DNA from: Verrucomicrobiia bacterium
GTDB taxonomy: Bacteria; Omnitrophota; Omnitrophia; Omnitrophales; Aquincolibacteriaceae
Direction of reading: 5' to 3'
DNA: 64,000 bases
NCBI GenBank assembly: GCA_035495615.1
Contig: DATJFP010000021.1
Location: 9,024-73,023, forward strand
Positions 28,158 to 55,419 of the stretch are shown in pieces. Position numbers and translations under genes: made by a program. The notes under the pieces are model-generated. The model did not search any database, was not told the origin of the DNA, and saw only the letters and a list, made by a program, of their open reading frames with translations. Every line of letters starts with the position of its first letter. Position 1 is the first letter of the stretch.

Positions 28158-28297
28158 AATGGGCCGTTTTTAAGGAATTATCCCCGGTCCTTGCCGGGTA
28201 AGCAGTTGTAACGATTTTTCCCTGTCCCGCGTTGATGACGCTGGACTGCGCTGGCGGAGCCGATAGTTTCCGTTCCGCGTGCGGGAATAAAAGACAT

Positions 28298-28370
28298 TCC
28301 CCTGTAGCTCAGTTGGTAGAGCAAGTGACTGTTAATCACTTTGTCCCTGGTTCGAGCCCAGGCGGGGGAG
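28298..28370 (+). tRNA. tRNA-Asn (anticodon GTT), CCA not encoded
   Basis: Close match to canonical bacterial tRNA-Asn (TCCxCTGTAGCTCAGTTGGTAGAGC...CTGTTAATC...GGTTCGAGCCC). Acceptor TCCCCTG/CGGGGGA, discriminator G followed by TTT. Confidence 0.85.
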
Positions 28371-28377
28371 TTTATAA

Positions 28378-28408
28378 GCCCTGCGGGAGTTTTCCCGCAG
28401 GGCTTTTT
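28378..28408 (+). terminator. Rho-independent terminator after tRNA-Asn
   Basis: GCCCTGCGGGA-gtttt-TCCCGCAGGGC followed by TTTTT. Confidence 0.7.
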
Positions 28409-28414
28409 CATGCC

Positions 28415-28443
28415 TTGACAGTATCTGCATAAGCAGATATAGT
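28415..28443 (+). promoter_or_regulatory. arsR promoter (TTGACA, 17-nt spacer, TATAGT) with an ArsR-type operator inverted repeat in the spacer
   Basis: -35 at 28415-28420 and -10 at 28438-28443. Inverted repeat TATCTGC-ATAA-GCAGATA occupies 28422-28439. Confidence 0.6.
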
Positions 28444-28449
28444 TTGGTC

Positions 28450-28800
28450 ATGAAACTGACCAATTTGCAAATCGCGCTGGCTGCCATTGCCGATCCTACG
28501 CGGCTTAGAATCATGAACCTCCTTCAAGAAGGAGAGCTATGCGTATGCGACGTGATGAGCGTTCTTAAAGAACCTCAATCCAAGGTGTCGCGCCATCTTG
28601 GCTATCTCCGGAAATCGGGATTAGTTGAAGCGCGCAAGCAGGGTCTTTGGATGTATTACCGTTTAGCTAAGCCGAGCGGGAAAACAATTCAGGGCGTTTT
28701 TGAGGCTTTGAAATTAGCCCAAAATGACTGCGAAGAGCTGAAAGAAGACCTGCGGGAATTTAATAGAAGCAAAAGCTGTCTGGTAGCCTGTTGTAAGTAA
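28450..28800 (+). CDS. arsR: ArsR/SmtB-family arsenite-responsive transcriptional repressor
   Basis: wHTH with the As(III)-binding motif ELCVCDV. C-terminal Cys cluster CLVACCK. An alternative TTG start lies at 28444. Confidence 0.85.
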   Translation: MKLTNLQIALAAIADPTRLRIMNLLQEGELCVCDVMSVLKEPQSKVSRHLGYLRKSGLVEARKQGLWMYYRLAKPSGKTIQGVFEALKLAQNDCEELKEDLREFNRSKSCLVACCK

Positions 28801-28821
28801 AATTTTTTGGTCAAAATACAT

Positions 28822-28837
28822 CTGCATAAGCAGATAT
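28822..28837 (+). promoter_or_regulatory. Second copy of the ArsR-type operator inverted repeat, upstream of the aquaporin-like/arsC genes
   Basis: ATCTGC-ATAA-GCAGAT is identical to the core of the operator at 28423-28438. It lies 21 nt downstream of the arsR stop and just upstream of RBS GGAAGGAGGGG. Confidence 0.55.
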
Positions 28838-28858
28838 GGAAGGAGGGGTTCCAATGGA

Positions 28859-29194
28859 TTGTTGCAATGGAGGGTGCTGCTAATGAACATGGTTTCAAAA
28901 GCCCTGGCGGAGATGGGAGGCGCGTTTGCTCTCATCTTCGTTGGCGCCGGAAGTATTATGCTTTCCGAAAAGCATATTGTCCCGGCTTTTTGTATTCCTC
29001 TCGCGTGGGGTCTCATGGTTTCTCTGATGATTATCGCGGTAGGCCATATATCGGGAGCGCATTTTAATCCGGCGGTTACTCTTGCTTTCGCGATAACGAA
29101 ACGCATTCCGTTTAGCGAAATCTGGTTTTATTGGACGAGTCAGATGATAGGCGGGATTATTGCCGCCAGCCTTTTAGGGGCTTTGAACAAATGA
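28859..29194 (+). CDS. Half-length aquaporin/aquaglyceroporin (MIP family) protein: TM1-TM3 plus the first NPA box only. Possible truncated arsenite channel
   Basis: Aligns to the AqpZ/GlpF N-terminal half (GAFALIFVGAGS...VGHISGAHFNPAVTLAFAI). The ORF stops after TM3. The stop overlaps the arsC ATG (AAATGA). TTG start is 10 nt after a strong RBS, with an alternative ATG at 28882. Confidence 0.5.
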   Translation: MLQWRVLLMNMVSKALAEMGGAFALIFVGAGSIMLSEKHIVPAFCIPLAWGLMVSLMIIAVGHISGAHFNPAVTLAFAITKRIPFSEIWFYWTSQMIGGIIAASLLGALNK

Positions 29195-29610
29195 AAACAA
29201 AAGTGCTTATCCTATGTACTGGAAATTCCTGCCGTTCTCAAATGGCTGAAGGGATATTGAGGCATTATGGAGCAGATAAATTCGAGGTTTTCAGTGCTGG
29301 AACCAAGCCTTCCACAGTCAACAAAATAGCCATTGAGGTCATGCGCGAACTTGGTATTGATATATCCGGCCAACGTTCTAAGAGCGTCAGCGAGTTGTTG
29401 GGGCAGCATTTTCACTATGTCATAACTGTTTGTGATAATGCCAAGGAGTCCTGTCCTATTTTCCCGGGGAATAGCACCCAACTCCATTGGGCATTTCCTG
29501 ACCCGCCGCATGAGAAGACGATTACCGAAGAAGTCCGAAAGGAGTTCCGCAAGGTCCGCGATCTCATTCATACCCGCTTTAAGAAAGTGGCCGAAACGGG
29601 AAACTTTTAG
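29191..29610 (+). CDS. arsC: Arsenate reductase, LMW-PTP / thioredoxin-coupled type
   Basis: ILCTGNSCRSQMAEG P-loop. Conserved Cys pair in VCDNAKESCP. Overall similarity to pI258/B. subtilis ArsC. Confidence 0.88.
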   Translation: MKTKVLILCTGNSCRSQMAEGILRHYGADKFEVFSAGTKPSTVNKIAIEVMRELGIDISGQRSKSVSELLGQHFHYVITVCDNAKESCPIFPGNSTQLHWAFPDPPHEKTITEEVRKEFRKVRDLIHTRFKKVAETGNF

Positions 29611-29722
29611 GCGACTAAGCTGATTTGGGCGCTTTCCAAGAGGATACGGATCGAAGAAAGTTCAATTTTTAAGGCTTCGGAAAGGTTGCGAAACGCGTCC
29701 AACAGGGGGAGTTTTATAAGAA

Positions 29723-29760
29723 AAGGCCGCTTCGAGTCCAATCGCTGCGGCCTTTTTTTT
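29723..29760 (+). terminator. Terminator hairpin with a T8 tail downstream of arsC
   Basis: GGCCGC...GCGGCC stem followed by TTTTTTTT at 29753-29760. Confidence 0.5.
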
Positions 29761-30154
29761 AGTCTTTGACGCTTTGGGGGGCTGATTCTTTTCGAAGAAA
29801 TTCTCTGAGGTCATAAGCAGTAGTATGTTCGGGCCCGATCTCCCATTCTTTTTTTCTGCTATGGTGCAGAAGCGTCACAATTCCGGTCTTTGCCTTATGG
29901 GCCATTTTTTCAAAACACGCCCTCCGGTCCGGCTCTCGAAGCTCCTTCTCGTATTCCTCTAGAAATCGATCATGAGTCCAATGTTTCCAAATTCTCATTT
30001 CCTTCAACTCATAAGAGGGCGCGAGCTCATGCATCCAAGTATAAGGCGCGAGCGTATAAGCATCCATTCCCTCCGGCCACAAAGTTTCCACGAGATATCT
30101 TTCGCCATCAGCCGGTTCATAAGTTTCATAAGCGCTTTTCAATTTAAGGGGCAT
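29759..30154 (-). CDS. DUF488 (YeaO-like) family protein
   Basis: N-terminal pattern KSAYETYEPADGERYLVETLWPEG...LAP resembles the DUF488 consensus (RVYEP...DG.RVLVDRLWPRG). Confidence 0.55.
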   Translation of the reverse strand: MPLKLKSAYETYEPADGERYLVETLWPEGMDAYTLAPYTWMHELAPSYELKEMRIWKHWTHDRFLEEYEKELREPDRRACFEKMAHKAKTGIVTLLHHSRKKEWEIGPEHTTAYDLREFLRKESAPQSVKD

Positions 30155-30261
30155 TTTTTCCTCTCTTTCTGTTCAGAAGCGGGGAATCCCGCGAAATACT
30201 GTTCATGGACAACCCCCCTATTGAGGAGTATGCTGAATTTATAGGGGGGGAGGTGATTGCT

Positions 30262-30555
30262 ATGGCAGCAGTCCAACAAGGCGGCTCTAAGATGCGGACA
30301 ATGGAACTCGTTATGCCGGCCCACCTCGGATTTCACCTCCGCATTATCGCGCGGTTCGTGCAGCTTGCCCTCAGATTTCGTTCTTCTATTAAAATTCGAA
30401 AAGGAAAGCTCGTTGCTGACGGTAAAAGCATCCTTGGTCTTCTCACGCTGGGAGCTGCGTGGAAGTCAAAGATGGAAATCGAAGTTTGCGGTGATGATGC
30501 TGATCAGGTCGTCGAGCGTATTAACGAGTTTTTTTTGATGCAAGAAAATAGATAG
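30262..30555 (+). CDS. HPr-family phosphocarrier-like protein
   Basis: PAHLGFHLRIIARFVQLA...IKIRKGKLVADGKSILGLLTLGAAWKSKMEIEVCGDDADQVVERINEFF matches the HPr fold signature, including the His phosphorylation-site context. Strong RBS GGGGGGGAGGTG. Confidence 0.6.
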   Translation: MAAVQQGGSKMRTMELVMPAHLGFHLRIIARFVQLALRFRSSIKIRKGKLVADGKSILGLLTLGAAWKSKMEIEVCGDDADQVVERINEFFLMQENR

Positions 30556-30594
30556 ACTGAAAGCGGCGTTTGCCCGACGGCGCATTTGTTTTCT

Positions 30595-31275
30595 CTATTC
30601 TGGGGTTTTGTGGATGCTGCTTTCAATGATTCCCGCGGCAATGGCATAGCGGGTCAGGCCCGCGGTGTCATGGATGTTTAACTTTTCCATGAGATGCTGC
30701 CGGTGTTTTTCAACCGTTTTGATGCTGATATCAAGTTCCGCGGCGATCTGCTTGTTGGCGTTCCCTTCGGCAATTAATTGAAGCACCTCGACCTCGCGCG
30801 AGCTTAGGCTGATCTTTTTCCCTCGAGGAAGAGCTTCCCGGCGGCGCAGTTTCTGATAAAGTTCGGGCAATCGTTTGGCGATGGAGGGGCTGAAAAATCG
30901 ATTTCCCTTTTGGACTTCCCGGATGGCTTTCGACAAAACCTCGTAAGAAGTCTGCTTGATGATATATCCTGAGGCGCCGAGTAACAGCACCCGCTTGACG
31001 TATTCTTCGTCACTATACGCGGAGAGAATGATGATTCGTGCCGCTGGCATAGACTTCAGGATTTGCCGCGTGGCTTCAAATCCGTTCAAAAGCGGCATCG
31101 CGATATCCATCACAATTACCGCAGGACGAAGCGCCTTGGCGAGCTGCACGGCCTGGCGGCCGGTTTGCGCCTCACCGACCACTTCGATATCGCCTTCAGC
31201 CTCGAGCAGCATCCGAAGCCCTTGCCGGAGAATTTTATGGTCCTCAGCCAGGAGGACGGTGATTCGATTTGCCAT
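30595..31275 (-). CDS. NarL/LuxR-family response regulator (REC + HTH)
   Basis: VLLAEDH...VIVMDIAMP receiver domain with phospho-accepting Asp. C-terminal LuxR HTH (LSSREVEVLQLIAEGNANKQIAAELDISIKTVEKHR). Start overlaps the upstream kinase gene. Confidence 0.85.
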   Translation of the reverse strand: MANRITVLLAEDHKILRQGLRMLLEAEGDIEVVGEAQTGRQAVQLAKALRPAVIVMDIAMPLLNGFEATRQILKSMPAARIIILSAYSDEEYVKRVLLLGASGYIIKQTSYEVLSKAIREVQKGNRFFSPSIAKRLPELYQKLRRREALPRGKKISLSSREVEVLQLIAEGNANKQIAAELDISIKTVEKHRQHLMEKLNIHDTAGLTRYAIAAGIIESSIHKTPE

Positions 31276-32071
31276 TGCTTCGTCTTGCTCCGTTGATGAA
31301 AGGAATCTCCACCCGGACCAAAGTGCCTTTGCCGGCCGTGGACTCGATCGTAAAGCTGCCATTAACCATTTCTACCCGTTCCCGCATCCCGATGACGCCT
31401 AATCTTTTGTGCCTTTTGGCGAAAAGCACGCGGTCCACTCGAAAAGATTTGCCATTGTCTTTTATTTCCATGCGAATGGAATTCCGCAGTTTCAGGATGC
31501 TCAAGCTCGCTTTGCTTGCTTTCGCATGCTGCGCGACATTCGTGAGCGCCGATTGGGCCACTCGATAAAGCATCGTACGCTTGGAGCCGCTTAATCTTTC
31601 CACACCGCGAAAGACCGTAAAGCGGACGGGAATGCGAGTTCTTTTTGTGAAGTCTTTTATGTAGGAAGTCAAAGCCGGAATAAGCCCCAGGTCGTCCAAG
31701 ATCGTTGGGCGCAATTCCCGGGCGAACCGGTGCACAATGTTCACCGAATTTTCTACAAGGCGCTGCGTATGGACTATTTTTTTCTTGAGGCCCTTCGTGT
31801 TGGTTGCAGCTTCTTTTTTTAACCCGCCCAGATGGACATTGATTCCGGCCAGGGTCTGAGCGATTTCATCGTGAAGCTCGCGGCTGATCTGCCTCCGTTC
31901 TTCCTCCTGCGCGAGCAGGATCTGATGAGACAGGCGCCGCAAACGCTTTTGCATCTCGCGCGACTCGCCCAGCACTTGGTTATAGTGCTGCTTATTTTTT
32001 TTAAGCGCGGCCTCCGCGATCTTGCGCCGGTGGATCTCTTGTTTGAGTTTATCGTTCCTAGGATCGTTCAT
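31244..32071 (-). CDS. Soluble sensor histidine kinase, HisKA_3/NarX-DesK type, no TM segments
   Basis: N-terminal coiled coil. H-box ELHDEIAQTL. HATPase_c C-terminus. Confidence 0.8.
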   Translation of the reverse strand: MNDPRNDKLKQEIHRRKIAEAALKKNKQHYNQVLGESREMQKRLRRLSHQILLAQEEERRQISRELHDEIAQTLAGINVHLGGLKKEAATNTKGLKKKIVHTQRLVENSVNIVHRFARELRPTILDDLGLIPALTSYIKDFTKRTRIPVRFTVFRGVERLSGSKRTMLYRVAQSALTNVAQHAKASKASLSILKLRNSIRMEIKDNGKSFRVDRVLFAKRHKRLGVIGMRERVEMVNGSFTIESTAGKGTLVRVEIPFINGARRSNGKSNHRPPG

Positions 32072-32133
32072 CGGATTCCCTTCACTATTATCGAATAGTT
32101 ACTTTGATCCGTCCATGGGTAATGAAATGCTGC

Positions 32134-33321
32134 TTAGGCGGCCTGAAGCTGCAAGTACACCGATTTCCACTGGGTGAGCATTTGATGAAATCGGCGGCGG
32201 GCCTCTAGGCTTCTAACAGCGGCTTCCTTCGTTGCATTGGAATGCCGTGCAATGCGCTGACAGAGAATCTGCTGATAATCCCTGGCGGCATGCTCCCAAT
32301 CGCCCAGGGTTTGCTTGAGTTTTTCATATTGAGCCTGAAGCATTTCTCGGAAAGTCAAGGCGCCCGGATTTTCGAGTCTTTCGAGAAGCCGGTCTTCAAG
32401 ACTTTGTTTTTCGGCGGCCAGTTGGGCGGCAATAATACGGAACTTGGACATCTTTCTTAAATCCCACGCAAGCCCCAGCCCGGAGAGTAGAGCAATTATC
32501 CATTTGGTTGGGTCCCATTGGTACCAGCGCACGCCATTCCGGTAATCTCCCGGGAAATGATGGTGATAATTATGATAGCCCTCTCCATTTGTGATCAAGG
32601 CCGCCAGCCAGTGGTCCTTCGCCGAAGAATAAATGTCGTAGGTGGCTTTCCCAAACTTATGGCAAACCGAATTGATGCAGAAGGTGGCGTGGTAGACCAA
32701 GGTAAGCCGGGTGCAGACGCTTAAGAGGAAGGCTCCAAGCAGATGCCCTGTAAGCGCGCCAACGACGAGGGGAGTGAGAATCCCCGCCGTGATTGACCAT
32801 GCCGTGTAATAACGATGCTGATGCGCGAGAAGCCGGCTTTTTCGCAGGTCTCTTGCATTCTCATAATGGAGGGGATGCTGCCAAAAAATGAGCCATCCAA
32901 TGTGCGCGTAAAAGAACCCTTTTTTAATGCTGTAGGGGTCAAGCTCGGAGTCGACTAAGCGGTGATGATCGCGGTGCTGCGAGGCCCAGCGGAGGGCGGA
33001 TTGCTCGAAAGCGGCGGCCCCGAAAAAGAGCACGAGAAAACGGACAAGGGCATGGGCTTTAAAAGTGCAGTGGGCAAAGAGCCGGTGGTAACCCAGGGTG
33101 ATGCTGGTGCTCGTAACCGCCATGTAAAACAAAAAGAGCAAAAGCTCCGAGACTGAAATGCCAAAACGGAGAAGATAGAGGCAAGTTCCAAGCGTCCCTA
33201 AAAGGGTCGTGATGAAGAAAAAAATGACATTGGTCCAGATCACCTTTTTTACCGGGACCTGCTGTTGCGCCGCCGTAACCTCTTTGTTCCCAAATCGTTG
33301 TCCCATTGCTTTTTGTCTCAT
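32134..33321 (-). CDS. Acyl-CoA/acyl-lipid fatty acid desaturase with ~100-aa C-terminal coiled-coil extension
   Basis: His boxes HRLFAH, HRDHHRLVD, HNYHHHFPGDYRNG. 4 TM segments. Confidence 0.85.
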   Translation of the reverse strand: MRQKAMGQRFGNKEVTAAQQQVPVKKVIWTNVIFFFITTLLGTLGTCLYLLRFGISVSELLLFLFYMAVTSTSITLGYHRLFAHCTFKAHALVRFLVLFFGAAAFEQSALRWASQHRDHHRLVDSELDPYSIKKGFFYAHIGWLIFWQHPLHYENARDLRKSRLLAHQHRYYTAWSITAGILTPLVVGALTGHLLGAFLLSVCTRLTLVYHATFCINSVCHKFGKATYDIYSSAKDHWLAALITNGEGYHNYHHHFPGDYRNGVRWYQWDPTKWIIALLSGLGLAWDLRKMSKFRIIAAQLAAEKQSLEDRLLERLENPGALTFREMLQAQYEKLKQTLGDWEHAARDYQQILCQRIARHSNATKEAAVRSLEARRRFHQMLTQWKSVYLQLQAA

Positions 33322-33358
33322 GGCTTCAATGATAATTCAATTCAAGGCCGCGCAATAT

Positions 33359-33399
33359 GGGGTATTCAGCCCATGGACCGGAGGTGGGGTCAATACCCC
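33359..33399. promoter_or_regulatory. 8-bp inverted repeat GGGGTATT...AATACCCC (25-nt spacer) in the desaturase upstream region
   Basis: Perfect arms at 33359-33366 and 33392-33399, 40-80 nt upstream of the minus-strand desaturase start. Candidate operator or 5'UTR stem. Confidence 0.3.
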
Positions 33400-33461
33400 A
33401 TAGTTATTGTATCCGATAAGGTTTAACCTGACAGCTCGATCGGCGAAGTTATAGAGAAGGT

Positions 33462-34568
33462 ATGGGGGGTGGTATGAAATCGACGTCCATGATTCTGTCT
33501 GATTTTTTAACCCAAAATAAAAATGAGATTATTCAGCTATGTAGAGACAAGGTGCTTGCCGCGGGAGAGTCCAAGCCAACTTCAACCCTGTTAGAACGAG
33601 GGCTGCCTTTCTTCTATGATGAGCTCATCGAGGTATTAAAACGCGCCGGTTCCCTGGCCTTTATCGACCTCATTAAACAGGATGGCGAAGCTGCCGTGCA
33701 TGGAAAAGAGTCGTTGCGGCTTGGCTACACAATCTCCCAAGTTGTTCATGCTTACGGCGCTGTTTGCCAATCCATCACAGAATTTGTCCAAGCTAAATCG
33801 TATCAAATCACTCCTCTCGAGTTTCAAACTCTTAACCTTGCCCTTGATTGCGCCATCGCCGAGGCTGTAACCGAATTTGAGAAAACACAAAGCGAAAATG
33901 TCGCCCGAAGCGAATCTGAACGCCTAGGCTCCCTCATTCATGAACTGGGGAATTCGCTTGCGGCAGCATCGATCTCTTCTGATTTGATTCAATCGGGGCG
34001 AGTGGCAAGCGCGGGCAAAACCAGCGATGTGTTGAGGGGGGCGCTCAAGCGCATGCGCCACATCCTGGATGTTTCGCTCACTGAAATTCGTTTGCGGACG
34101 AAAGCCCCATTGGAAGCAGAACAAATCCGTCTTATTGATATTATAAGCGAGATAGAAGCCGTTACGATGATCATGTATGAGACTAAAAAAATCCATTTGG
34201 AATTTCATATCGATCCTTCCATTGAATTAACCGCTGACCGCCATCTGGTTTTTTCCGCGCTCTCGAATTTGGTGAACAATGCCATGAAATTCACAAAGAG
34301 AAATGGGCGTGTCTTCGTACGCGGCAAAGAATCGGCGGGGCGCATCTTGATTGAAGTAGAAGACGAATGTGGGGGCTGGCAGGAAGAAGATAATGTGGAG
34401 GAGTTATTCGATCCTTTCGTCCAAAAAGGAGAGGATAAATCCGGTTTAGGTTTGGGGCTCTCCCTCAGTCGTAAAGCCATCGAATTAAATCGCGGCAAAC
34501 TGACGGCGCATAATATCCCGGGAAAAGGATGCGTCTTTACAATCGACCTCCCGAAGATCGAGAAATAG
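33462..34568 (+). CDS. Cytoplasmic sensor histidine kinase (HisKA + HATPase_c)
   Basis: H-box SLIHELGNSLAAA. N/G-box region NLVNNAMKFT...GLGLGLS. Confidence 0.75.
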   Translation: MGGGMKSTSMILSDFLTQNKNEIIQLCRDKVLAAGESKPTSTLLERGLPFFYDELIEVLKRAGSLAFIDLIKQDGEAAVHGKESLRLGYTISQVVHAYGAVCQSITEFVQAKSYQITPLEFQTLNLALDCAIAEAVTEFEKTQSENVARSESERLGSLIHELGNSLAAASISSDLIQSGRVASAGKTSDVLRGALKRMRHILDVSLTEIRLRTKAPLEAEQIRLIDIISEIEAVTMIMYETKKIHLEFHIDPSIELTADRHLVFSALSNLVNNAMKFTKRNGRVFVRGKESAGRILIEVEDECGGWQEEDNVEELFDPFVQKGEDKSGLGLGLSLSRKAIELNRGKLTAHNIPGKGCVFTIDLPKIEK

Positions 34569-34829
34569 TTTCCATCAAGACTTTGAAAGTCCATGGCGCT
34601 AGATAGTGCCCAGTTGCGAAAGTCGTCCTGGACGGGGAGGCATTAAAAAAGCCAGTGCCCATGAGGGTGCTGGCTTTTTTATTTGAACCCGGCCCTTCAG
34701 CGAAGAAACCCTTTTAGGTTGGAAGAAGTGCCTGTTTCGCTTTCTATAGGGCTTATAGGTTCCGCTAGCTCTCTCATCGAATGAGGCGTAGACTCCTATT
34801 GTGCTTCGATTTATAAAGAAAGGGCATCT

Positions 34830-35918
34830 GTGAATTTTAAGGAAAGATTCAAACCATTTATTGAACATCGAAGGCAGCTCAAGACCATCTACGTGGCGAC
34901 TTGTGACGAAACCGGCCAGCCCAATTGCGCGCCAAGATTGCTTATCGATATCACGGAGCCCAACCACATCTTTTACGTTGATTTCAAGTCATCACAAAGC
35001 TATGCGAACATTTGCTCGACCAAGAAAGTCTCTCTGGCTTTTATGGACGAAAGAAATCTCGTAAGCTTTAAAATCAACGGGCGTTGCGAAACCATACAGT
35101 CCAGCAAAGAGCTCAAGACCGTTAAGGACAAATGGGCCAAGATCGTCAATGGTTATCATGCGGAGCGGATCATCGAACGGGTTACGGGGGTTGTTTCGGG
35201 CAGGGTTGGAGAAATCGTGCTCAGTGAGGATTACGTATTCATCAAGTTTTCTGCAGAGAAAATGAAACACGCCGTGATCCGGCATCCCAGTGCTTATCCG
35301 ATAGGTAAAATAGCGGCTTTACAGCTGCGGATCGACGATCTTCAAAAAGTCGTCGAGAAACAAAAAGAGGACGGGCGGGAGATGGAAGTCTCCAGAGATT
35401 CCTATAAAGCAAGCTCAGATATGTTTGAAGTCGCCGCAATGCAAGACAACCTTACGGGACTTTACAATCAGCGTGGTTTTATCGTCCTTGTGGAGCAGCA
35501 ATTAAAGATTGCCAAGCGGCAGAAAAAGGACAGTTTTTTTATATTTTCAGATGTGGATCATTTGAAACGGATTAATGATACCTTCGGCCATGCAAAGGGG
35601 GATCAAACGCTCGTGGAAATTGCGCGGATCTTGAAGAAGAGTTTTCGCGAATCGGATATTATCGCCAGAATCGGCGGAGACGAATTTGCGGTGGCGATGG
35701 TGGATTGCGGGAAGGAAAATCTGGATTTAGCAAAAGGCCGGTTAAAGAAAAATATAGAAGCGTACAACCGAAATTCCCGGGAGGCTTACCCCATCGAGCT
35801 TAGTGTCGGCGTCGCCTGCTGCAACTCAGACGACACAATCGATCTGCGTAAGCTGCTTCATCAAAGTGATCAAATGATGTATGAAGAGAAAAGAAAAAAT
35901 AATCCCGAATCTCTTTAA
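34830..35918 (+). CDS. PNPOx-like (FMN-binding split barrel) domain fused to GGDEF diguanylate cyclase
   Basis: N-terminal pyridoxamine-5'-phosphate-oxidase-like fold (TIYVATCDETGQPNCAPR). C-terminal GGDEF with intact RIGGDEFAV and RxxD-like context. Confidence 0.75.
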   Translation: MNFKERFKPFIEHRRQLKTIYVATCDETGQPNCAPRLLIDITEPNHIFYVDFKSSQSYANICSTKKVSLAFMDERNLVSFKINGRCETIQSSKELKTVKDKWAKIVNGYHAERIIERVTGVVSGRVGEIVLSEDYVFIKFSAEKMKHAVIRHPSAYPIGKIAALQLRIDDLQKVVEKQKEDGREMEVSRDSYKASSDMFEVAAMQDNLTGLYNQRGFIVLVEQQLKIAKRQKKDSFFIFSDVDHLKRINDTFGHAKGDQTLVEIARILKKSFRESDIIARIGGDEFAVAMVDCGKENLDLAKGRLKKNIEAYNRNSREAYPIELSVGVACCNSDDTIDLRKLLHQSDQMMYEEKRKNNPESL

Positions 35919-35934
35919 TTTGCACAGGCCCGCG

Positions 35935-36004
35935 CTTCAGAACTCAAGAAAGCCCACGATCTCATCCATGCACGATTTAAGAAGGTGGGCGAGACAGGGA
36001 GTTT
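35935..36004 (+). pseudogene. Remnant 3' end of an arsC-like gene (last ~22 codons)
   Basis: Translates to ...ELKKAHDLIHARFKKVGETGSF*, versus the arsC C-terminus EFRKVRDLIHTRFKKVAETGNF*. Confidence 0.55.
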
Positions 36005-36120
36005 TTAGGCGGCCAAGCTAATTCGGGCACTTTCCAAGAGGATACGGACCGACGAAAACTCAATTTTCAGGGCGTGAGTAGGGTTCCGAAACGCGTCCAA
36101 CAGGGGGAGTTTTGCAAAAG
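35935..36120 (+). repeat. Copy B of a ~180-bp duplicated module (arsC 3' end + conserved spacer). Copy A lies at 29548-29726
   Basis: About 80% nucleotide identity by hand alignment. Includes the blocks CTTTCCAAGAGGATACGGA and CGAAACGCGTCCAACAGGGGGAGTTTT. Confidence 0.65.
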
Positions 36121-36157
36121 GCGTTGTGTGGGTATAATCTCACAACGCCTTTTTATT
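36116..36157 (+). terminator. Bidirectional-looking terminator hairpin
   Basis: AAAAG-GCGTTGTG-(13-nt loop containing TATAAT)-CACAACGCC-TTTTTATTT. Confidence 0.55.
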
Positions 36158-36182
36158 TAATCCGAAGCTTGGAGGTGGGGAC

Positions 36183-37094
36183 ATGAATAAAACAAATTCT
36201 TTTTTATGCTCATTCTTTGCTTGTTTTTTATTAATCCACACCGGCTCTTTTGCCGCCGACATCCCTCAAGCCTCTCAGCAGGAGACCTTTAAGCGAATCG
36301 AAGAGCTGACGGGTGCCAAAGGCGCTTACGACGAAAAGGAGCAAGTCTTCAAAGTCAGCTTTCCTCGTAAAGATTTAGAAGTTAATGCGGCCGGGGCCAA
36401 AATAACTCCACCAATGGGACTTACCGCCTGGGCTGCTTTCAAGCTGATGGGCGATCATACCATGATGATGGGCGACATGGTGATGACCGAAGACCAGGTC
36501 AACCCGGTCATGAGCGTTGCGCTTGAAAATGGTTTGGAGGTTACGGCGCTCCACAATCATTTCTTTTGGGATTCTCCGAAAATAATGTTCATGCATATTG
36601 GCGGAATGCGGGATACGGAAGCTTTAGCCCAAGCGGTCGGAAAGGTTTTTGAAAAAATCAGAGAGACAAGCGGCGGCAAAGGCGAAAAGCCTTATCTTGA
36701 AATTGATCCCTCAAAGACATCTCTCGACCCCAAGAACATCGAAGAAATCATGGGTAAAACTGGAAAAATGAACGACGGCGTTTATAAGATTACCATTGGC
36801 CGGACCACTCAAATGGGCGGTCACGAAATGGGTAACGCGATGGGCGTGAATACCTGGGCCGCTTTTATCGGGAGCGATGAAAAGGCGTTGGTTGACGGCG
36901 ATTTTGCCATGCTCGAATCCGAAGTGCAGCCCGTATTGAAGGCTTTGCGCGGCGCGGGAATCAATATCGTCGCGATTCACAACCATATGACGATGGAAAA
37001 TCCGAGAATCATTTTTCTGCATTATTGGGGGATTGGCGCAACAGTCGATCTCGCCAAAGCCTTAAAGGCCGCATTGGACTTACAGAAACAATGA
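36183..37094 (+). CDS. Secreted protein with internal duplication carrying (A/I)HNH(F/M) motifs, DUF1259-like
   Basis: Signal peptide MNKTNSFLCSFFACFLLIHTGSFAA. Two homologous halves (LTAWAAFKLMGD...ALHNHFF and VNTWAAFIGSDE...AIHNHMT). Confidence 0.6.
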   Translation: MNKTNSFLCSFFACFLLIHTGSFAADIPQASQQETFKRIEELTGAKGAYDEKEQVFKVSFPRKDLEVNAAGAKITPPMGLTAWAAFKLMGDHTMMMGDMVMTEDQVNPVMSVALENGLEVTALHNHFFWDSPKIMFMHIGGMRDTEALAQAVGKVFEKIRETSGGKGEKPYLEIDPSKTSLDPKNIEEIMGKTGKMNDGVYKITIGRTTQMGGHEMGNAMGVNTWAAFIGSDEKALVDGDFAMLESEVQPVLKALRGAGINIVAIHNHMTMENPRIIFLHYWGIGATVDLAKALKAALDLQKQ

Positions 37095-37106
37095 CCGGGA
37101 GGGCCC

Positions 37107-37385
37107 TTGTTCGGAAAACGCTTAACAGAAAAATTTAAAAAAGAGCTGAGAATTTACCAGCTTATTTTGAAGGATTCCCGGACGCCGGGAATTTCGAAAT
37201 GGTTCTTAGGAATGGCGGTTGCCTACGCCCTTTCTCCCATCGACCTTATTCCGGACTTTATACCCCTTCTTGGAGTGTTAGACGATCTGATTATTGTTCC
37301 CTTGCTCATTTGGCTTGGCATTCGCTCCATTCCCAAAAAGATTTTAGAGGATTGCCGAAACCAAGCAAACAACCAGGAGAATTGA
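37107..37385 (+). CDS. DUF1232 (YkvA-like) small membrane protein
   Basis: Motif SPIDLIPDFIPLLGVLDDLII. TTG start is uncertain, with an alternative internal ATG. Confidence 0.5.
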   Translation: MFGKRLTEKFKKELRIYQLILKDSRTPGISKWFLGMAVAYALSPIDLIPDFIPLLGVLDDLIIVPLLIWLGIRSIPKKILEDCRNQANNQEN

Positions 37386-37388
37386 CGC

Positions 37389-37997
37389 ATGAGAAAACTG
37401 ATCGTTCTTTCCTTTATATCGCTTGATGGCGTCATCCAAGCCCCCGGAGGCCCGGAAGAAGATACTTCGGACGGTTTCAAATACGGCGGCTGGACTTTTC
37501 CTTATTTCGATGGCGTGTCGGGAGAGATTATGGCTGAACAGATGTCCCGGCCGTTTAACCTGCTTCTCGGCAGAAAAACTTACGATATTTTTGCCGGGTA
37601 CTGGCCGCATCATGGAGACAAGTGGCCGGGGGTTAACGACGCGCCCAAGTATGTTGCCTCAAGGAACAGCTCGCTCAAACTTGAATGGAAGAATTCGGTC
37701 CTCCTGAAAGGCGACATCGCAGAAGAAGTGCAGAAGCTCAGAAAACAAAACGGTCCCGAGCTGCATGTGTACGGCAGCGGCGATTTCATTCAAACTCTTT
37801 TGAAACACGATCTCATCGATGAGCTTTGGCTCAAGATCTTTCCCGTCACTTTGGGGAAGGGTAAACGCCTCTTTGCCGAAGGCGCCATCCCCGCAGAGTT
37901 TACTTTGACGGACTGCAAAGTTTCTCCGAGCGGCGTGATCTTTGCCAATTACAAACGGGCGGGAGAGGTCAAAACGGGATCGTTCGCGGCCGGCTGA
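37389..37997 (+). CDS. Dihydrofolate reductase-family protein (RibD C-terminal-like)
   Basis: MRKLIVLSFISLDGVIQAPGGPEED...GGW...LLGRKTYDIFAGYWP is typical of the bacterial DHFR-like YwjB/RibD_C family. Confidence 0.75.
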   Translation: MRKLIVLSFISLDGVIQAPGGPEEDTSDGFKYGGWTFPYFDGVSGEIMAEQMSRPFNLLLGRKTYDIFAGYWPHHGDKWPGVNDAPKYVASRNSSLKLEWKNSVLLKGDIAEEVQKLRKQNGPELHVYGSGDFIQTLLKHDLIDELWLKIFPVTLGKGKRLFAEGAIPAEFTLTDCKVSPSGVIFANYKRAGEVKTGSFAAG

Positions 37998-38030
37998 ACA
38001 GGATTCAGGCGGCGCCGGGCTTAGCGGGAA

Positions 38031-40178
38031 TTATCGGCCTATAATGATCCGCGCGTCGAGAACGGATGCGCCGGCGCCTTCCGTGTGGACCATCAGGGGA
38101 TTGACGTCGATTTCCTTGATTTGCGGGTGGTCCATGGTGAGCTGGGAAAGGCGTTCGATGCATTCCACCACTTTCGCGATGTCGGATTTTTTTTCGCCGC
38201 GCACGCCCTGAAGGATTTTATAACTGCGGATGGATTGCACCATCAGCTCGGCGCTGCGCTTGCGCAGCGGCGCGAGCCGGAAAGTCACATCTTTCAGCAC
38301 CTCCACATAGATCCCCCCCAGACCGAACATCACCGTGGGACCGAGCGCCGGATCGCGGTTCATGCCGAGGATGACTTCTGTCCCCTTGCCGGACATCCGC
38401 TGCACGAAGAAACCCTCCAGGCGCCCTTTGGGAAACACTTTGGCGAATTTCTCTTTTATTTCGCGGCAGGCCGCGAGGACATCCCCTTCATTCCGGAGAT
38501 CCAGGCGGACCGCGCCGAAATCGAATTTATGCACGATTTGCGGCGAAATCGCCTTGATGACGACGGGGAAACCTATGCCGCGAGCGGTCTTGCCCGCATC
38601 TTCTTCCGAAGACGCGAAGCCGAACGGGAGAACCGGGAAGCCGTAGATTTTGAGGATTTCCATGGCCCGGTCGATCGGCACCATCGTCTGGCCGCTTTCG
38701 GCGGTTTCGCGAATGATCTTTTGGACGGCGCCTTTGTCCACGTCAAAGGATTTGATCGTGGTCCGCGGGCGCTGGATCCATTGGTGGTACCGGTACATCC
38801 GGCCGAGGACTTGCCCGGCATTTTCCGGAAAACGGTAATGGGGAATACCGTTCTCTTCCAGGATTCTTACGCCGGCAGAAACGTCGGCAATGCCCATAAA
38901 ACACGCGATGATGGGCACCTTGCTCGCGGCGGCGGCCTTTACGATCACGCGCGCGGTTTCCTCGATCGCGGTCATGGCCTGCGGCGTCAGGATGACGAGC
39001 AGGCTGTCGACTTCCGTGTCCTGCGCTACGATGCGCAGGGCTTCTTCATAGCGGCCGGCGCGGGCATCCCCGATGACGTCGATCGGGTTGTGGATATTGG
39101 CCGTGGGCGGAAGCGCTTTAGCCAGGGCCGCTTTTGTTTCCGGCGAAAAGGAAGAAAGGCTCAGCCCGCCGCGGATGCAGGTGTCGGTGGCAAGGATCCC
39201 GGGGCCGCCGGCATTGGTCACGATGGCCACGCGCGGCCCTTTGGGAAAGGGCTGCTTGGAGAAGGCGATGGCAAGATCGAACATCTCCTGGATGCTGTCC
39301 ATCCGCAGCACCCCGGCCTGCGCGAAAATCGCGTCGTAAACTTCGTCGGCGCCCATCAGCGAGCCGGTATGGGATTGCGCTGCTTTCGCGCCTTGCGCAG
39401 TACGTCCCGATTTGATGACGAGGATGGGTTTGGATTTCTCCAGGTCACCCGTAATTTCGCTGCTGGTATCGATGAACCGCCGGGCGTTCACCAGGTCTTC
39501 GACGTACATGAGGATCACGTCGGTCCCGGAATCCGTCTTCAGGTAATTCAGCATGTCGATTTCGTTGAGTCCCGACTTGTTTCCCAGGCTGACGAATTTC
39601 GAAAAGCCGATGCCGGCGCCTTTGGCGTAGTCGAGGACGGCGGTGCAAAGCGCCCCGCTCTGCGAAACAAAAGCGATGTTTCCGGCGGCGGGCATCGCGC
39701 GGGCGAAGCTTGCATTGACGAGAAAGTCAGGGTCCGTATTGATCAGGCCCAGGCAATTCGGGCCCAGCATCGCGATGCCGTAATCCTGGGCCGCGGCCAG
39801 CAGTTCCTCTTCACGCCTGCGGCCGTCTTCGCCGATTTCGCGGAAGCCCGCCGTGATCACGATGGCCGCTTTGGCCCCTTTTTCCCCGCAGGCGCGCAGG
39901 GTTTCCGCGGCCGCGGCGGGCGGGACGATGATGACCGCGAGATCGAACGGCGAAGGAATGGCTTCAACCGAATGAAAGCAGGGAAGACCGCAAATCTCGT
40001 CGGCTTTCGGATTGACGAGATGGAGCTGCCCTTTGAACCCGCCGCGCCGGAGATTGTCCACCATGGCATGGCCCACGGTTTCGGGATTGCGCGACGCTCC
40101 GATGACAGCGATGGAATGGGGAGAAAAGAGGGACGCTATCTTGGAGAGGTCGGTCTTTTTCTCAGTAAGGGTGCTCAT
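38031..40178 (-). CDS. ADP-forming acetyl-CoA synthetase / acetate-CoA ligase (CoA-binding + ATP-grasp, fused alpha-beta)
   Basis: N-terminal CoA-binding motif SIAVIGASRNPETVGH. Succinyl-CoA-synthetase-like ligase domain and a C-terminal ATP-grasp. Confidence 0.8.
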   Translation of the reverse strand: MSTLTEKKTDLSKIASLFSPHSIAVIGASRNPETVGHAMVDNLRRGGFKGQLHLVNPKADEICGLPCFHSVEAIPSPFDLAVIIVPPAAAAETLRACGEKGAKAAIVITAGFREIGEDGRRREEELLAAAQDYGIAMLGPNCLGLINTDPDFLVNASFARAMPAAGNIAFVSQSGALCTAVLDYAKGAGIGFSKFVSLGNKSGLNEIDMLNYLKTDSGTDVILMYVEDLVNARRFIDTSSEITGDLEKSKPILVIKSGRTAQGAKAAQSHTGSLMGADEVYDAIFAQAGVLRMDSIQEMFDLAIAFSKQPFPKGPRVAIVTNAGGPGILATDTCIRGGLSLSSFSPETKAALAKALPPTANIHNPIDVIGDARAGRYEEALRIVAQDTEVDSLLVILTPQAMTAIEETARVIVKAAAASKVPIIACFMGIADVSAGVRILEENGIPHYRFPENAGQVLGRMYRYHQWIQRPRTTIKSFDVDKGAVQKIIRETAESGQTMVPIDRAMEILKIYGFPVLPFGFASSEEDAGKTARGIGFPVVIKAISPQIVHKFDFGAVRLDLRNEGDVLAACREIKEKFAKVFPKGRLEGFFVQRMSGKGTEVILGMNRDPALGPTVMFGLGGIYVEVLKDVTFRLAPLRKRSAELMVQSIRSYKILQGVRGEKKSDIAKVVECIERLSQLTMDHPQIKEIDVNPLMVHTEGAGASVLDARIIIGR

Positions 40179-40202
40179 AAACTCTCCGGTCTTCAGTCAG
40201 GT

Positions 40203-40496
40203 CTATTCGTATAAATAAAGCAAAAAGGCCACGTTCTCTTCGGCCGTCAGCGCATGAGGGGCGGACGCTTTCATGCAGATAATCGTGCCGGGCTCCATGC
40301 GCAGGGCAGTGCCTTCGAGGGCAAAAGATCCACGGCCCTGGATAACGTGCAGCACTCCCGCCCGCGGCGTGGAATGCTCGTCCATCCCTGTTCCTTTCGC
40401 AAGGCACATCAGCGTACAGCTGAAATGTTTGCCGTGTGCAAGGACTTTGCTGTAGATCCCGCCTTCTCTGAACTGGATTTCGCTGGCAAGCTGCAT
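40203..40496 (-). CDS. Cupin-domain protein
   Basis: 97 aa with cupin motifs (GMDEHSTPRAGVLHVIQGRG...PGTIICMKASAPHAL). Confidence 0.6.
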   Translation of the reverse strand: MQLASEIQFREGGIYSKVLAHGKHFSCTLMCLAKGTGMDEHSTPRAGVLHVIQGRGSFALEGTALRMEPGTIICMKASAPHALTAEENVAFLLYLYE

Positions 40497-40710
40497 GGCT
40501 TTCGTCCTTAGGTTTTGAATGAGGTGCGGCCGCGCTCTTAAGGGTAGGCCGGAAGATCATTCTACCTAAACGGGCCTAAAATCAAAAGGCCTGTCTCACG
40601 GCAAAAATCTCTGACGGGCGGCCGTATTCCGGCAGCGAGGCCCCGCGGTTTTATCAGCCCTGGATGGAGAGGGCCGCTTTTAGCCGCCGAAAATAGATTG
40701 GTTTTTGGAG

Positions 40711-41640: not shown

Positions 41641-41799
41641 TAACTCGAAATCCTTTAGTCCTATAACCCATTGCTCTTAAGACAATGACTTAAGGAAAAG
41701 CTACCTGATGATTGGGGAAAAGAAAAGGCCATCGGCGGGAAAATCAGCCTTAAAAACAGGAGAGAAAATGGAGCAAAAGCGGCGGGATGAGATCGGCCA

Positions 41800-46524: not shown

Positions 46525-46583
46525 AGCGAACGGAAGCGGGAAAGCCCGGCATTTGGGGGAAGACGCCTGGAAGGGCCCGGACC

Positions 46584-52920: not shown

Positions 52921-55419
<2,499 letters not shown>

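What the first reader, a model, noticed from the sequence alone, without database searches (positions are those of the whole stretch)
28371..38010. Lower-GC accessory islet inserted next to tRNA-Asn
Composition drops visibly right after tRNA-Asn. It stays low through a set of accessory genes: ars resistance, HPr-like protein, two sensor kinases plus a regulator, a desaturase, a GGDEF cyclase, a DUF1259-like secreted protein and DHFR-like. It returns to high GC at the acetyl-CoA synthetase gene. Integration at a tRNA 3' end is the classic island signature. No integrase and no obvious direct repeat of the tRNA 3' end were found, so it may be an old, decayed island.
Basis: partly seen in the sequence, partly recalled or inferred. 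Interest (0 to 1): 0.6.

Follow-up and report, generated by a model that had tools for sequence, protein, structure and literature searches.

The report
Patchwork low-GC islet beside tRNA-Asn
A 9.6-kb stretch of foreign-looking, lower-GC accessory genes sits right after a tRNA-Asn gene in an uncultivated Omnitrophota bacterium, at a spot where relatives carry other inserted DNA; it is a real but fairly ordinary patchwork genomic islet with no surviving integration machinery.

Summary
GC is 0.489 in 28372-38010 against 0.583 elsewhere. Gene GC3 averages 0.54 against 0.75 in the left core genes, tetranucleotide usage deviates, and change points fall at 28108 and 37956. The genome is a Candidatus Omnitrophota MAG. 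Its nearest sampled relative has only 78% FtsK identity, so presence/absence in close relatives cannot be tested.

More distant relatives show an insertion hot spot. The NusA...PNPase-dUTPase-FtsK block is collinear in all 36 nearest loci, and collinearity ends at FtsK/tRNA-Asn. In three relatives the tRNA is followed at once by a large serine recombinase. A fourth has a 4.7-kb low-GC AbiV block plus a 23-nt tRNA 3'-end repeat.

The islet is a patchwork, not one clean element:
- a decayed ars module with a half aquaporin;
- a signalling/desaturase module whose genes cluster in lower-GC Omnitrophota;
- an arsC remnant with an orphan chromate-operon gene (DUF1259).

The PNPOx-GGDEF gene occupies the same position as in one relative but has foreign codon composition. 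The variable zone actually runs to the H+-pyrophosphatase gene at 52.9 kb. There is no recombinase and no convincing att repeat. Verdict: new member of a known kind, low-to-moderate interest.

The parts
25705..28110 (+). FtsK gene. It is the last gene of the conserved core block and the left anchor. GC3 0.78.
   Evidence: Pfam. Collinear NusA...PNPase-dUTPase-FtsK in all 36 nearest loci.
28297..28371 (+). tRNA-Asn (GTT). No CCA is encoded, whereas relatives L001-L003, L036 and L081 do encode CCA.
28376..28411 (+). Terminator-like hairpin plus T-run directly after the tRNA.
   Evidence: Inverted 13-nt arms found; sequence.
28415..28443 (+). Sigma-70-like promoter (TTGACA-17-TATAGT) containing the palindrome ATCTGCATAAGCAGAT, a putative ArsR operator. 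An identical 18-nt copy lies at 28820-28837, upstream of the MIP'/arsC genes.
   Evidence: repeat family D19. The operator role is inferred.
28444..28800 (+). ArsR/SmtB metalloregulator gene.
   Evidence: Pfam HTH_5 1.5e-17; NF033788 91 bits.
28883..29194 (+). Half MIP/aquaporin gene covering TM1-TM3 and the first NPA motif only. Its stop overlaps the arsC ATG (ATGA). It is a truncated channel.
   Evidence: Matches MIP profile positions 7-108 of 222 and TIGR00861 positions 1-99 of 224; translation and sequence.
29191..29610 (+). Thioredoxin-type (LMWP) arsenate reductase gene, ArsC.
   Evidence: LMWPc 6e-22. TIGR02691 scores 135 bits, below its 174-bit cut-off.
29551..29715 (+). Copy 1 of a 165-nt direct repeat: the last about 20 codons of arsC plus 105 nt of non-coding sequence.
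   Evidence: 81% identical to 35949-36113.
29705..29720 (+). GGGGGAGTTTTATAAG, a 15/16 match to the tRNA 3' end plus flank (28364-28378). Possible att scar, weakly supported.
   Evidence: Best non-self hit in the window, but it scores 25 against 24 for the next best.
29718..29759 (.). Bidirectional terminator-like hairpin between arsC and DUF488.
   Evidence: Inverted repeat I17.
29759..30154 (-). DUF488 (N3 subclade) gene.
   Evidence: Pfam. Homologs of 44-52% identity lie next to the GGDEF gene in L086.
30205..30555 (+). HPr-family phosphocarrier-like protein gene with a 30-aa N-terminal extension.
30595..31275 (-). NarL/LuxR-type response regulator gene.
   Evidence: 64% identical to the L086 regulator.
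31244..32071 (-). HisKA_3 histidine kinase gene; the protein is cytoplasmic, with no TM segment.
   Evidence: 61% identical to the L086 kinase.
32134..33321 (-). Membrane fatty-acid desaturase gene.
   Evidence: A 58% homolog lies next to an ACS homolog in L097.
33489..34568 (+). Second, soluble histidine kinase gene (HATPase_c).
34830..35918 (+). PNPOx_N-GGDEF diguanylate cyclase gene. It sits at a syntenic position but has foreign composition (GC3 0.53).
35940..36010 (+). arsC' pseudogene remnant: the last about 23 codons, in frame, with conservative changes. It lies inside repeat copy 2 (35949-36113).
36183..37094 (+). DUF1259 (LppY/LpqO-type) secreted protein gene with a signal peptide. 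It is an orphan from chrB-DUF1259-chrA operons.
37107..37385 (+). DUF1232 small membrane protein gene.
   Evidence: JGI precomputed Pfam hit; TM segment.
37389..37997 (+). RibD_C (dihydrofolate-reductase-like) gene; the last low-GC gene.
   Evidence: change point at 37956.
38031..40178 (-). ADP-forming acetyl-CoA synthetase gene with host-like composition (GC3 0.75). It marks the compositional right edge, but its position is not conserved in relatives.
52921..55419 (-). H+-pyrophosphatase gene, the conserved right anchor of the whole variable zone.
   Evidence: 84% homologs lie 11.7 kb from FtsK in L131 and 279 nt from FtsK in L006.

Best explanation
The 28.4-38.0 kb block is horizontally acquired DNA. 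It forms the youngest, least ameliorated layer of a long-lived variable zone that lies between two conserved core genes, FtsK (with tRNA-Asn at its end) and the H+-pyrophosphatase gene at 52.9 kb, in a Candidatus Omnitrophota genome.

It was built by more than one event and has three parts:
(A) An arsR-(aquaporin)-arsC arsenic module, now crippled because half of the channel gene is deleted.
(B) A signalling and membrane module: DUF488, an HPr-like gene, a HisKA_3 kinase with a NarL-type regulator, a desaturase, a second kinase and PNPOx-GGDEF. Its genes come from the gene pool of lower-GC Omnitrophota.
(C) A stub of a second arsC followed by DUF1259, DUF1232 and RibD_C. DUF1259 has been torn out of a chromate-resistance operon that circulates across phyla and on plasmids.

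Inferred entry route: site-specific integration at the tRNA-Asn, as seen today in relatives that still carry large serine recombinases there. Homologous replacement of the resident locus by DNA from a lower-GC relative is also possible. Either way, the recombinase was later lost, with deletions and rearrangements.

Shown: the foreign composition, the mosaic affinities, the hot spot in relatives, the decay marks, and the absence of a recombinase. Inferred: the order of events and the recombination mechanism.
For: Composition: as set out under the observation check.

Ortholog test against L081: window GC3 minus L081 GC3 is +0.12 for FtsK, +0.12 for PNPase and +0.16 for dUTPase, and +0.14 for H+-PPase, but -0.10 for GGDEF. 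The GGDEF gene matches its host's GC3 in L081 (0.63 against 0.58-0.66), L086 (0.43 against 0.39-0.52) and L084 (0.53 against 0.46-0.59), but not in the window (0.53 against 0.74-0.78).

Hot spot: synteny from window 16.1 kb to FtsK is kept in all 36 nearest loci and ends at FtsK/tRNA-Asn. The tRNA-Asn is followed directly by three different large serine recombinases, 25-32% identical to one another, in L001, L002 and L003. In L002 a PD-(D/E)XK / HerA-SIR2 / methylase island follows and GC drops from 0.53 to 0.44. L081/L131 has a 4.7-kb block with GC3 0.38-0.45 carrying HEPN_AbiV, and a 23-nt repeat of the tRNA 3' end 217 nt downstream. The FtsK to H+-PPase distance is 0.3 kb in L006, 11.7 kb in L131 and 24.8 kb in the window, and only GGDEF is shared.

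Mosaic affinities: the GGDEF family has about 22 full-length members, with best identities of 73-65%; the one named hit among them is an Omnitrophota MAG. The HK3 (61%), RR (64%), DUF488 (44-52%) and GGDEF (57%) homologs cluster within 6 kb in L086, which has GC 0.45. DUF1259 has more than 8000 homologs. The best are 74-81% identical and their names span Omnitrophica, Binatia, Burkholderiales and Bacillota. All three contexts examined were DUF1259-chrA operons, two of them also with chrB, in DNA of GC 0.41-0.43. Homologs occur on 113 plasmids, including Cupriavidus metallidurans CH34 plasmids. A link between an LppY/LpqO lipoprotein and chrA was reported in PMC2751784.

Decay: the half MIP gene; the arsC' remnant inside the 165-nt, 81%-identical repeat; no ChrA or ChrB remnant.

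Assembly: the same gene order from 20.3 to about 53.1 kb appears in a separate JGI contig.
Against: - No recombinase, transposase or remnant of one lies anywhere from 28 to 53 kb.
- No tRNA 3'-end repeat marks the right edge. The only tRNA-like repeat, at 29705, is barely above background.
- No relative closer than 78% FtsK identity exists in 5.8 billion proteins. No empty site or strain polymorphism can be shown, and no donor is identified.
- The GGDEF gene is collinear with its L081 ortholog. On position alone this would suggest vertical descent.
- The genome has a continuum of GC3 values (0.56-0.81 outside the islet), so part of the contrast could reflect gene class rather than origin.
- Module boundaries and the number of events are inferred from affinities and repeats, not observed.
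Confidence: 0.7

Rival explanations
1. One reading: one classical integrase-borne genomic island was inserted in a single event into the 3' end of tRNA-Asn. It spans exactly 28371-38010 and later lost its integrase and att repeats through decay.
For: The block starts at the tRNA. Relatives have recombinase-borne insertions at this tRNA. GC is fairly even across the block, at 0.46-0.53.
Against: There is no att repeat at 38 kb. Affinities are mixed: some genes are Omnitrophota-specific and others come from a cross-phylum, plasmid-borne pool. An internal 81%-identical arsC-end duplicate points to two ars operons or an internal rearrangement. GGDEF is collinear with L081. GC3 differs between sub-blocks: 0.60-0.62 for RR, HK3 and the desaturase against 0.46-0.55 for most of the other genes (RibD_C is 0.60).
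Confidence: 0.15
2. Nothing was transferred. The block is native, vertically inherited accessory DNA, and its lower GC and GC3 reflect weak selection or weak biased gene conversion on lowly expressed genes.
For: GC3 outside the islet also varies from 0.56 to 0.81. GGDEF is at a syntenic position. The best hits of GGDEF (73%) are about as distant as those of FtsK (78%).
Against: Four core orthologs gained 0.12-0.16 in GC3 relative to L081, while GGDEF is 0.10 lower. In L081, L084 and L086 the same gene matches its host's GC3. In L081 the native accessory genes beside it have core-like GC3 of 0.60-0.66. No other islet gene is found in this interval in any relative. DUF1259 belongs to a promiscuous, plasmid-borne family. 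The tetranucleotide signature also shifts after normalising for base composition.
Confidence: 0.08
3. Assembly artefact: a piece of a lower-GC Omnitrophota population was spliced into this contig at the conserved tRNA-Asn sequence during metagenome assembly.
For: The left junction is a 75-nt tRNA that is nearly identical between species. The inserted genes resemble those of lower-GC Omnitrophota. The source is a MAG.
Against: The sequence returns to host-like composition at a junction with no repeat: convergent gene ends only 33 nt apart. A chimera would therefore need a second, unassisted misjoin. A separate JGI contig of 32.8 kb has the same gene order across both junctions. High-GC Omnitrophota genes lie on both sides.
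Confidence: 0.05

Closest known systems
tRNA-linked genomic islands and islets (pathogenicity-island type; general knowledge, from memory)
   Same: It lies directly 3' of a tRNA gene, has deviant GC and codon usage, carries accessory cargo (metal resistance, signalling), and relatives have different cargo at the same tRNA.
   Different: It has no integrase or recombinase, no flanking repeat of the tRNA 3' end, and a mosaic origin. One internal gene is positionally conserved.
Large-serine-recombinase-borne islands at the same tRNA-Asn in relatives L001, L002 and L003
   Same: Same chromosomal site, after FtsK and tRNA-Asn. In L002 there is the same drop in GC.
   Different: Those islands begin with a 500-595 aa recombinase whose ORF runs into the tRNA antisense, and L002 carries defence genes. 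The window has no recombinase and shares no cargo with them.
Hot spots or regions of genome plasticity between conserved core genes (concept from comparative genomics, from memory)
   Same: The FtsK and H+-PPase genes bracket an interval of 0.3, 11.7 or 24.8 kb in three lineages, with almost no shared content.
   Different: Only three genomes can be compared, and they share only about 70% amino-acid identity. No population-level data exist.
arsR-aqpS-arsC type arsenic operons (Sinorhizobium meliloti type, from memory)
   Same: The gene order is regulator, MIP channel, arsenate reductase, with a palindromic operator-like site in the promoter.
   Different: The MIP gene keeps only its first half. 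No ArsB, Acr3 or ArsH gene is present, so the module cannot export arsenite on its own.
chrB-DUF1259(LppY/LpqO)-chrA chromate-resistance clusters (PMC2751784)
   Same: The DUF1259 protein is 72-77% identical to copies found inside such operons.
   Different: ChrA and ChrB are absent, with no remnants. The gene is instead preceded by an arsC stub.
Bacillus subtilis DesK-DesR-Des membrane-fluidity system (from memory)
   Same: A HisKA_3 kinase and a NarL-type regulator sit next to a membrane desaturase gene, all on one strand.
   Different: The kinase has no transmembrane sensor segment. No sequence-level orthology was tested.

Membership tests
Integrase-mediated tRNA-linked genomic island | Located at the 3' end of a tRNA gene | tested here: met
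   The tRNA-Asn ends at 28371. The GC change point is at 28108 and the first islet gene starts at 28444.
Integrase-mediated tRNA-linked genomic island | Base composition and codon usage differ from the host genome | tested here: met
   GC 0.489 against 0.583; GC3 0.54 against 0.75; the tetranucleotide signature shifts.
Integrase-mediated tRNA-linked genomic island | Integrase or recombinase gene, usually at the tRNA-proximal end | tested here: not met
   None of the 13 tiling ORFs has such a domain. tblastn with relatives' recombinases and a transposase gives only tRNA-antisense matches. None is found out to 53 kb.
Integrase-mediated tRNA-linked genomic island | Direct repeat of the tRNA 3' end at the distal boundary | tested here: not met
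   There is no match of 10 nt or more near 37.9-38.1 kb and no match to the 22-nt end with up to 3 mismatches. The only candidate is internal, at 29705, and scores 25 against 24 for the next best hit.
Integrase-mediated tRNA-linked genomic island | Present in some and absent from other closely related genomes | not testable with these tools
   The closest FtsK in the 5.8-billion-protein collection is 78% identical and sits on a 2.9-kb contig; the next are 71%.
Hot spot / region of genome plasticity | Bracketed by core genes that are conserved and collinear in relatives | tested here: met
   FtsK(+)...H+-PPase(-) in the window and in L131. The two genes are adjacent in L006, though H+-PPase is inverted there.
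Hot spot / region of genome plasticity | Different gene content in the interval in different genomes, with mobile-element genes in some | tested here: met
   Only GGDEF is shared with L131. L001-L003 have recombinases, L003 also an IS transposase, and L081 an AbiV block.
Functional ars operon | ArsR repressor plus arsenate reductase | tested here: inconclusive
   ArsR passes its subfamily cut-off (NF033788, 91 bits against 55). ArsC passes Pfam LMWPc but is below the TIGR02691 equivalog cut-off (135 bits against 174).
Functional ars operon | Arsenite export protein (ArsB, Acr3 or a complete aquaglyceroporin) | tested here: not met
   Only MIP profile positions 1-108 of about 222 are present, and the gene stops at the arsC start.
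chr chromate-resistance operon | ChrA transporter (and ChrB) next to DUF1259 | tested here: not met
   tblastn with ChrA and ChrB from L088 and L090 gives no hit in the islet.
DesK-DesR-Des type fluidity sensor | Kinase with a multi-pass transmembrane sensor | tested here: not met
   No hydrophobic segment was found in the 275-aa HisKA_3 kinase.

The most novel reading that the evidence does not exclude
The FtsK / tRNA-Asn / H+-PPase interval may be a clade-wide insertion hot spot in Omnitrophota. It would be served by a family of very divergent large serine recombinases that target the tRNA-Asn gene itself; their reading frames end inside the tRNA antisense. The window's islet would then show a second route: wholesale replacement of the resident locus, including the positionally conserved PNPOx-GGDEF gene, by homologous DNA from a lower-GC lineage of the same phylum.
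Probability: 0.2. Interest if true: 0.45.

Novelty: new member of a known kind. Interest (0 to 1): 0.3.

Why it matters
Omnitrophota are uncultivated, and gene flow in the phylum is little documented. This locus is a concrete example of an insertion hot spot there: a tRNA-Asn at the end of a deeply conserved housekeeping block, with recombinase-borne islands in some lineages and a recombinase-less, patchwork islet in this one. It also shows that lower-GC members of the same phylum and the cross-phylum metal-resistance gene pool both contribute cargo. The practical value is modest. It flags genes that should not be used for binning or phylogeny of this MAG. It also suggests that the three recombinases in the relatives may have a defined attB site at the tRNA-Asn.

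Tried and rejected
1. Full or partial repeat of the tRNA-Asn 3' end at the right boundary: none found.
2. The 16-nt match at 29705 as an att site: it is the best non-self hit in the window but not an outlier (25 against 24), so I kept it only as a weak lead.
3. The 105-nt conserved non-coding part of the 165-nt repeat as a known RNA: no Rfam family matched at gathering score or at E<=1. The two-sequence consensus fold is weak, with one compensatory pair.
4. The same 105 nt as the tail of a minus-strand gene: one frame is open in both copies with conservative changes. However, there is no Pfam hit and no homolog in any locus, it lies downstream of a terminator, and an open 37-codon frame is expected by chance in about one of six frames. 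I left this undecided.
5. More copies of the repeat core elsewhere in the window or in the 131 loci: none.
6. Recombinase remnants: none.
7. ChrA or ChrB remnants: none.
8. An empty site or presence/absence in near relatives: impossible, because the nearest relative is 78% identical.
9. Conserved neighbours of the ACS gene to fix the right boundary: none. The 79% homologs share no neighbour with the window.
10. A DesK-like reading of the kinase: rejected, because it has no TM segment.

Full report
**Observation.** A tRNA-Asn(GTT) gene lies at 28297-28371 on the + strand.
- GC falls from about 0.60 to 0.46-0.53 just after it and recovers at about 38.0 kb.
- Over 28372-38010 GC is 0.489, against 0.583 for the rest of the window.
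- The tetranucleotide signature, normalised for base composition, correlates 0.82-0.87 with the rest of the window inside the block. Elsewhere the correlation is 0.90-0.97.
- A two-segment likelihood scan puts the change points at 28108 and 37956.
- The 13 genes that tile the block have GC3 of 0.46-0.62 (mean 0.54). The 11 genes to the left have 0.70-0.78 (p=4e-5), and the 19 genes to the right average 0.66 (p=2e-4).

**Gene content.** In order:
- ArsR
- a half MIP channel
- LMWP/thioredoxin-type ArsC
- DUF488 (- strand)
- an HPr-like protein
- a NarL/LuxR-type response regulator, a soluble HisKA_3 kinase and a membrane fatty-acid desaturase (all on the - strand)
- a second soluble kinase
- PNPOx_N-GGDEF
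- DUF1259 with a signal peptide
- DUF1232
- RibD_C

Next comes a convergent ADP-forming acetyl-CoA synthetase gene with host-like GC3 (0.75). No ORF has an integrase, recombinase or transposase domain. The intergenic gaps are at most 264 nt, so no room is left for a hidden remnant.

**Whose genome.** The 80 best FtsK loci among GTDB species representatives are almost all labelled Candidatus Omnitrophota; a few are labelled only uncultured bacterium or Planctomycetia.
- The window itself is recorded at NCBI as a TPA MAG called 'Verrucomicrobiae bacterium', on a 78-kb contig.
- It is also present in JGI metagenome 3300045391.
- The separate 32.8-kb JGI contig has the same gene order from about 20.3 to 53.1 kb. 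Both junctions of the block are therefore reproduced.
- The closest other FtsK among 5.8 billion proteins is 78% identical, on a 2.9-kb contig; the next are 71%.

**What more distant relatives show.** The segment from window 16.1 kb to FtsK (NusA, IF2, RbfA, DHH, TruB, RibF, S15, PNPase, dUTPase, FtsK) is collinear in all 36 nearest loci. Collinearity stops at FtsK in every one. FtsK is followed by tRNA-Asn in L001, L002, L003, L036 and L081.
- In L001, L002 and L003 the tRNA is followed at once by a large serine recombinase gene on the opposite strand (Resolvase + Recombinase + Zn-ribbon; 595, 580 and 500 aa). The three are only 25-32% identical to one another.
- In L002 a PD-(D/E)XK nuclease, HerA + SIR2, a methylase and an endonuclease follow. 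GC falls there from 0.53 to 0.44.
- In L081/L131 the tRNA is followed by a 4.7-kb block with GC3 0.38-0.45 that contains HEPN_AbiV. A 23-nt copy of the tRNA 3' end lies 217 nt downstream.

This tRNA-Asn is therefore an insertion hot spot in this clade.

**The real extent of the variable zone.** The H+-pyrophosphatase gene at 52921-55419 (- strand, GC3 0.81) has 84% homologs in two relatives. In L131 the homolog lies 11.7 kb downstream of FtsK, in the same relative orientation. In L006 it lies 279 nt from FtsK, inverted. In the window the interval is 24.8 kb.
- None of its genes except PNPOx-GGDEF has a homolog in the L131 interval or in any other FtsK locus.
- The part from 40.2 to 52.8 kb has mostly intermediate GC3 (0.56-0.67). 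It encodes a desaturase, MFS, CDF, EamA and CLC transporters, a cytidylate-kinase-like protein, NUDIX, LicD and DUF1275. It has no mobility genes.

**The GGDEF gene.** It is 65% identical over its full length, without gaps, to the L081 gene. That gene lies 5.2 kb downstream of the same tRNA-Asn, on the same strand and before the same H+-PPase gene.
- Its family is small, about 22 full-length members, with best identities of 73, 72, 72, 71, 69, 69 and 65%; the one named hit among them is an Omnitrophota MAG. This distance profile resembles that of FtsK.
- Position therefore suggests ancestry, but composition does not.
- Window GC3 minus L081 GC3 is +0.12 for FtsK, +0.12 for PNPase, +0.16 for dUTPase and +0.14 for H+-PPase, but -0.10 for GGDEF.
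- In L081, L084 and L086 the gene matches its host's GC3. In the window it does not.

I read this as a xenologous copy at the old position. It could have arrived by homologous replacement from a lower-GC relative, or as part of a module that repeatedly lands here. That reading is inference.

**Affinities of the other genes.**
- In L086 (GC 0.45), homologs of the HisKA_3 kinase (61%), the regulator (64%), DUF488 (44-52%, two copies) and GGDEF (57%) lie within 6 kb of one another. These genes form a recurrent Omnitrophota neighbourhood.
- A 58% homolog of the desaturase lies 1.8 kb from a 59% ACS homolog in L097.
- DUF1259 behaves very differently. It has more than 8000 homologs, the best 74-81% identical, with names from Omnitrophica, Binatia, Burkholderiales and Bacillota.
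- All three DUF1259 contexts I looked up are DUF1259-chrA operons, two of them also with chrB, in DNA of GC 0.41-0.43.
- Homologs occur on 113 plasmids, including those of Cupriavidus metallidurans CH34.
- An LppY/LpqO lipoprotein next to chrA was reported for Arthrobacter FB24 (PMC2751784).
- The window copy has no ChrA or ChrB, and no remnant of either.

**Marks of decay and rearrangement.**
- The MIP gene keeps only TM1-TM3 and the first NPA motif. It ends in an ATGA overlap with arsC. The ars module therefore has a regulator and a reductase but no arsenite exit.
- A 165-nt direct repeat (29551-29715 and 35949-36113, 81% identical) consists of the last codons of arsC plus 105 nt of non-coding sequence. 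Each copy is followed by its own bidirectional terminator.
- In the second copy the arsC frame is intact for about 23 codons, with conservative and synonymous changes. It is the stub of a second, diverged arsC that once stood upstream of DUF1259.
- An 18-nt palindrome-containing sequence (ATCTGCATAAGCAGATAT) occurs twice. One copy lies inside a TTGACA-17-TATAGT promoter before arsR, and the other before the MIP'/arsC genes. An operator role is inferred.

**att sites.**
- The 22-nt tRNA 3' end has no second copy, even allowing up to 3 mismatches.
- Nothing lies near 38 kb.
- GGGGGAGTTT(T)ATAAG occurs at the tRNA end (28364-28378) and at 29705-29720. That second site is the end of repeat copy 1, so the pair brackets the ars module.
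- It is the best non-self match in the window but scores only 25 against 24 and 22 for the next best. I treat it as a weak lead only.

**Conclusion.** The composition signal is genuine and is best explained by horizontal acquisition at a demonstrated hot spot. The block is a mosaic built in several steps, not a single element with defined ends. It has no recombination machinery left. One of its genes sits at an ancestral position, and the variable zone is 2.5 times longer than described.

The rivals are less likely:
- A single-event island does not fit the mosaic affinities or the missing att repeat.
- A native low-GC region does not fit the ortholog GC3 test.
- An assembly chimera does not fit the repeat-free right junction or the second contig.

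This is a new member of a well-known kind of feature, in a poorly known phylum.

Noticed in passing
window 11-14143 (+): A single open reading frame of more than 4710 codons runs off the start of the window. Its first 840 residues are PutA-like (Pro_dh + Aldedh). The remaining roughly 3870 residues have no Pfam match. GC3 is 0.75, so the composition is host-like.
   Followed up: partly
L001 12486-14273, L002 12623-14365, L003 3653-5155 (all - strand): Three large serine recombinase ORFs, 25-32% identical to one another, all run into the antisense of the tRNA-Asn gene. In L002 and L003 the ORF ends 34 nt into the tRNA; at that offset the stop appears to be the reverse complement of the anticodon-loop TTA (my reading of the tRNA sequence). 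In L001 the frame reads through the whole tRNA. From memory, tRNA targeting by this recombinase class is uncommon.
   Followed up: partly
L081 12803-12826, with the GC-rich spacer 12640-12800: A 23-nt near-copy of the tRNA-Asn 3' end (TCGAGCCCAC-CGGGGGAGTCAT) lies 217 nt downstream of the tRNA, after its terminator and a GC-rich spacer of about 170 nt. It is an att scar or a tRNA-like remnant.
   Followed up: partly
window 28364-28371 compared with L001, L002, L003, L036, L081: The window's tRNA-Asn does not encode the 3' CCA (GGGGGAG|TTTATAAG), whereas five relatives do (GGGGGAGCCA). L005 also lacks it.
   Followed up: no
window 14763-15668 (-), 32134-33321 (-), 40711-41640 (-): There are three fatty-acid desaturase genes within 27 kb. 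The first has host-like GC3 (0.70) and keeps its position beside tRNA-Gly / NusA in L034 and L081. The other two have GC3 of 0.59-0.60.
   Followed up: partly
window 40200-52800: A second stretch of lineage-specific genes with mostly intermediate GC3 (0.56-0.67): Desat2, an unknown 467-aa protein, CDF, EamA, a cytidylate-kinase-like protein, NUDIX, LicD, CLC and DUF1275. The MFS gene within it has host-like GC3 (0.73). These are probably older acquisitions in the same FtsK to H+-PPase interval.
   Followed up: partly
L086 5348-11089 and 15318-15797: A recurrent neighbourhood in a GC-0.45 Omnitrophota contig: HisKA_3 kinase, NarL-type regulator, a second kinase, DUF488 overlapping the start of PNPOx-GGDEF, and another DUF488 5 kb further on. 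This suggests a functional link between DUF488 and this diguanylate cyclase family.
   Followed up: no
window 29611-29715 and 36011-36113: A 105-nt sequence downstream of arsC is conserved at about 82% between the two repeat copies, with identical 19- and 27-nt blocks. It has no Rfam match and no recognisable coding homology, so its nature is unresolved.
   Followed up: yes
whole window (source record): NCBI labels the source MAG 'Verrucomicrobiae bacterium', but nearly all labelled relatives of its FtsK, PNPase and dUTPase genes are Candidatus Omnitrophota.
   Followed up: no
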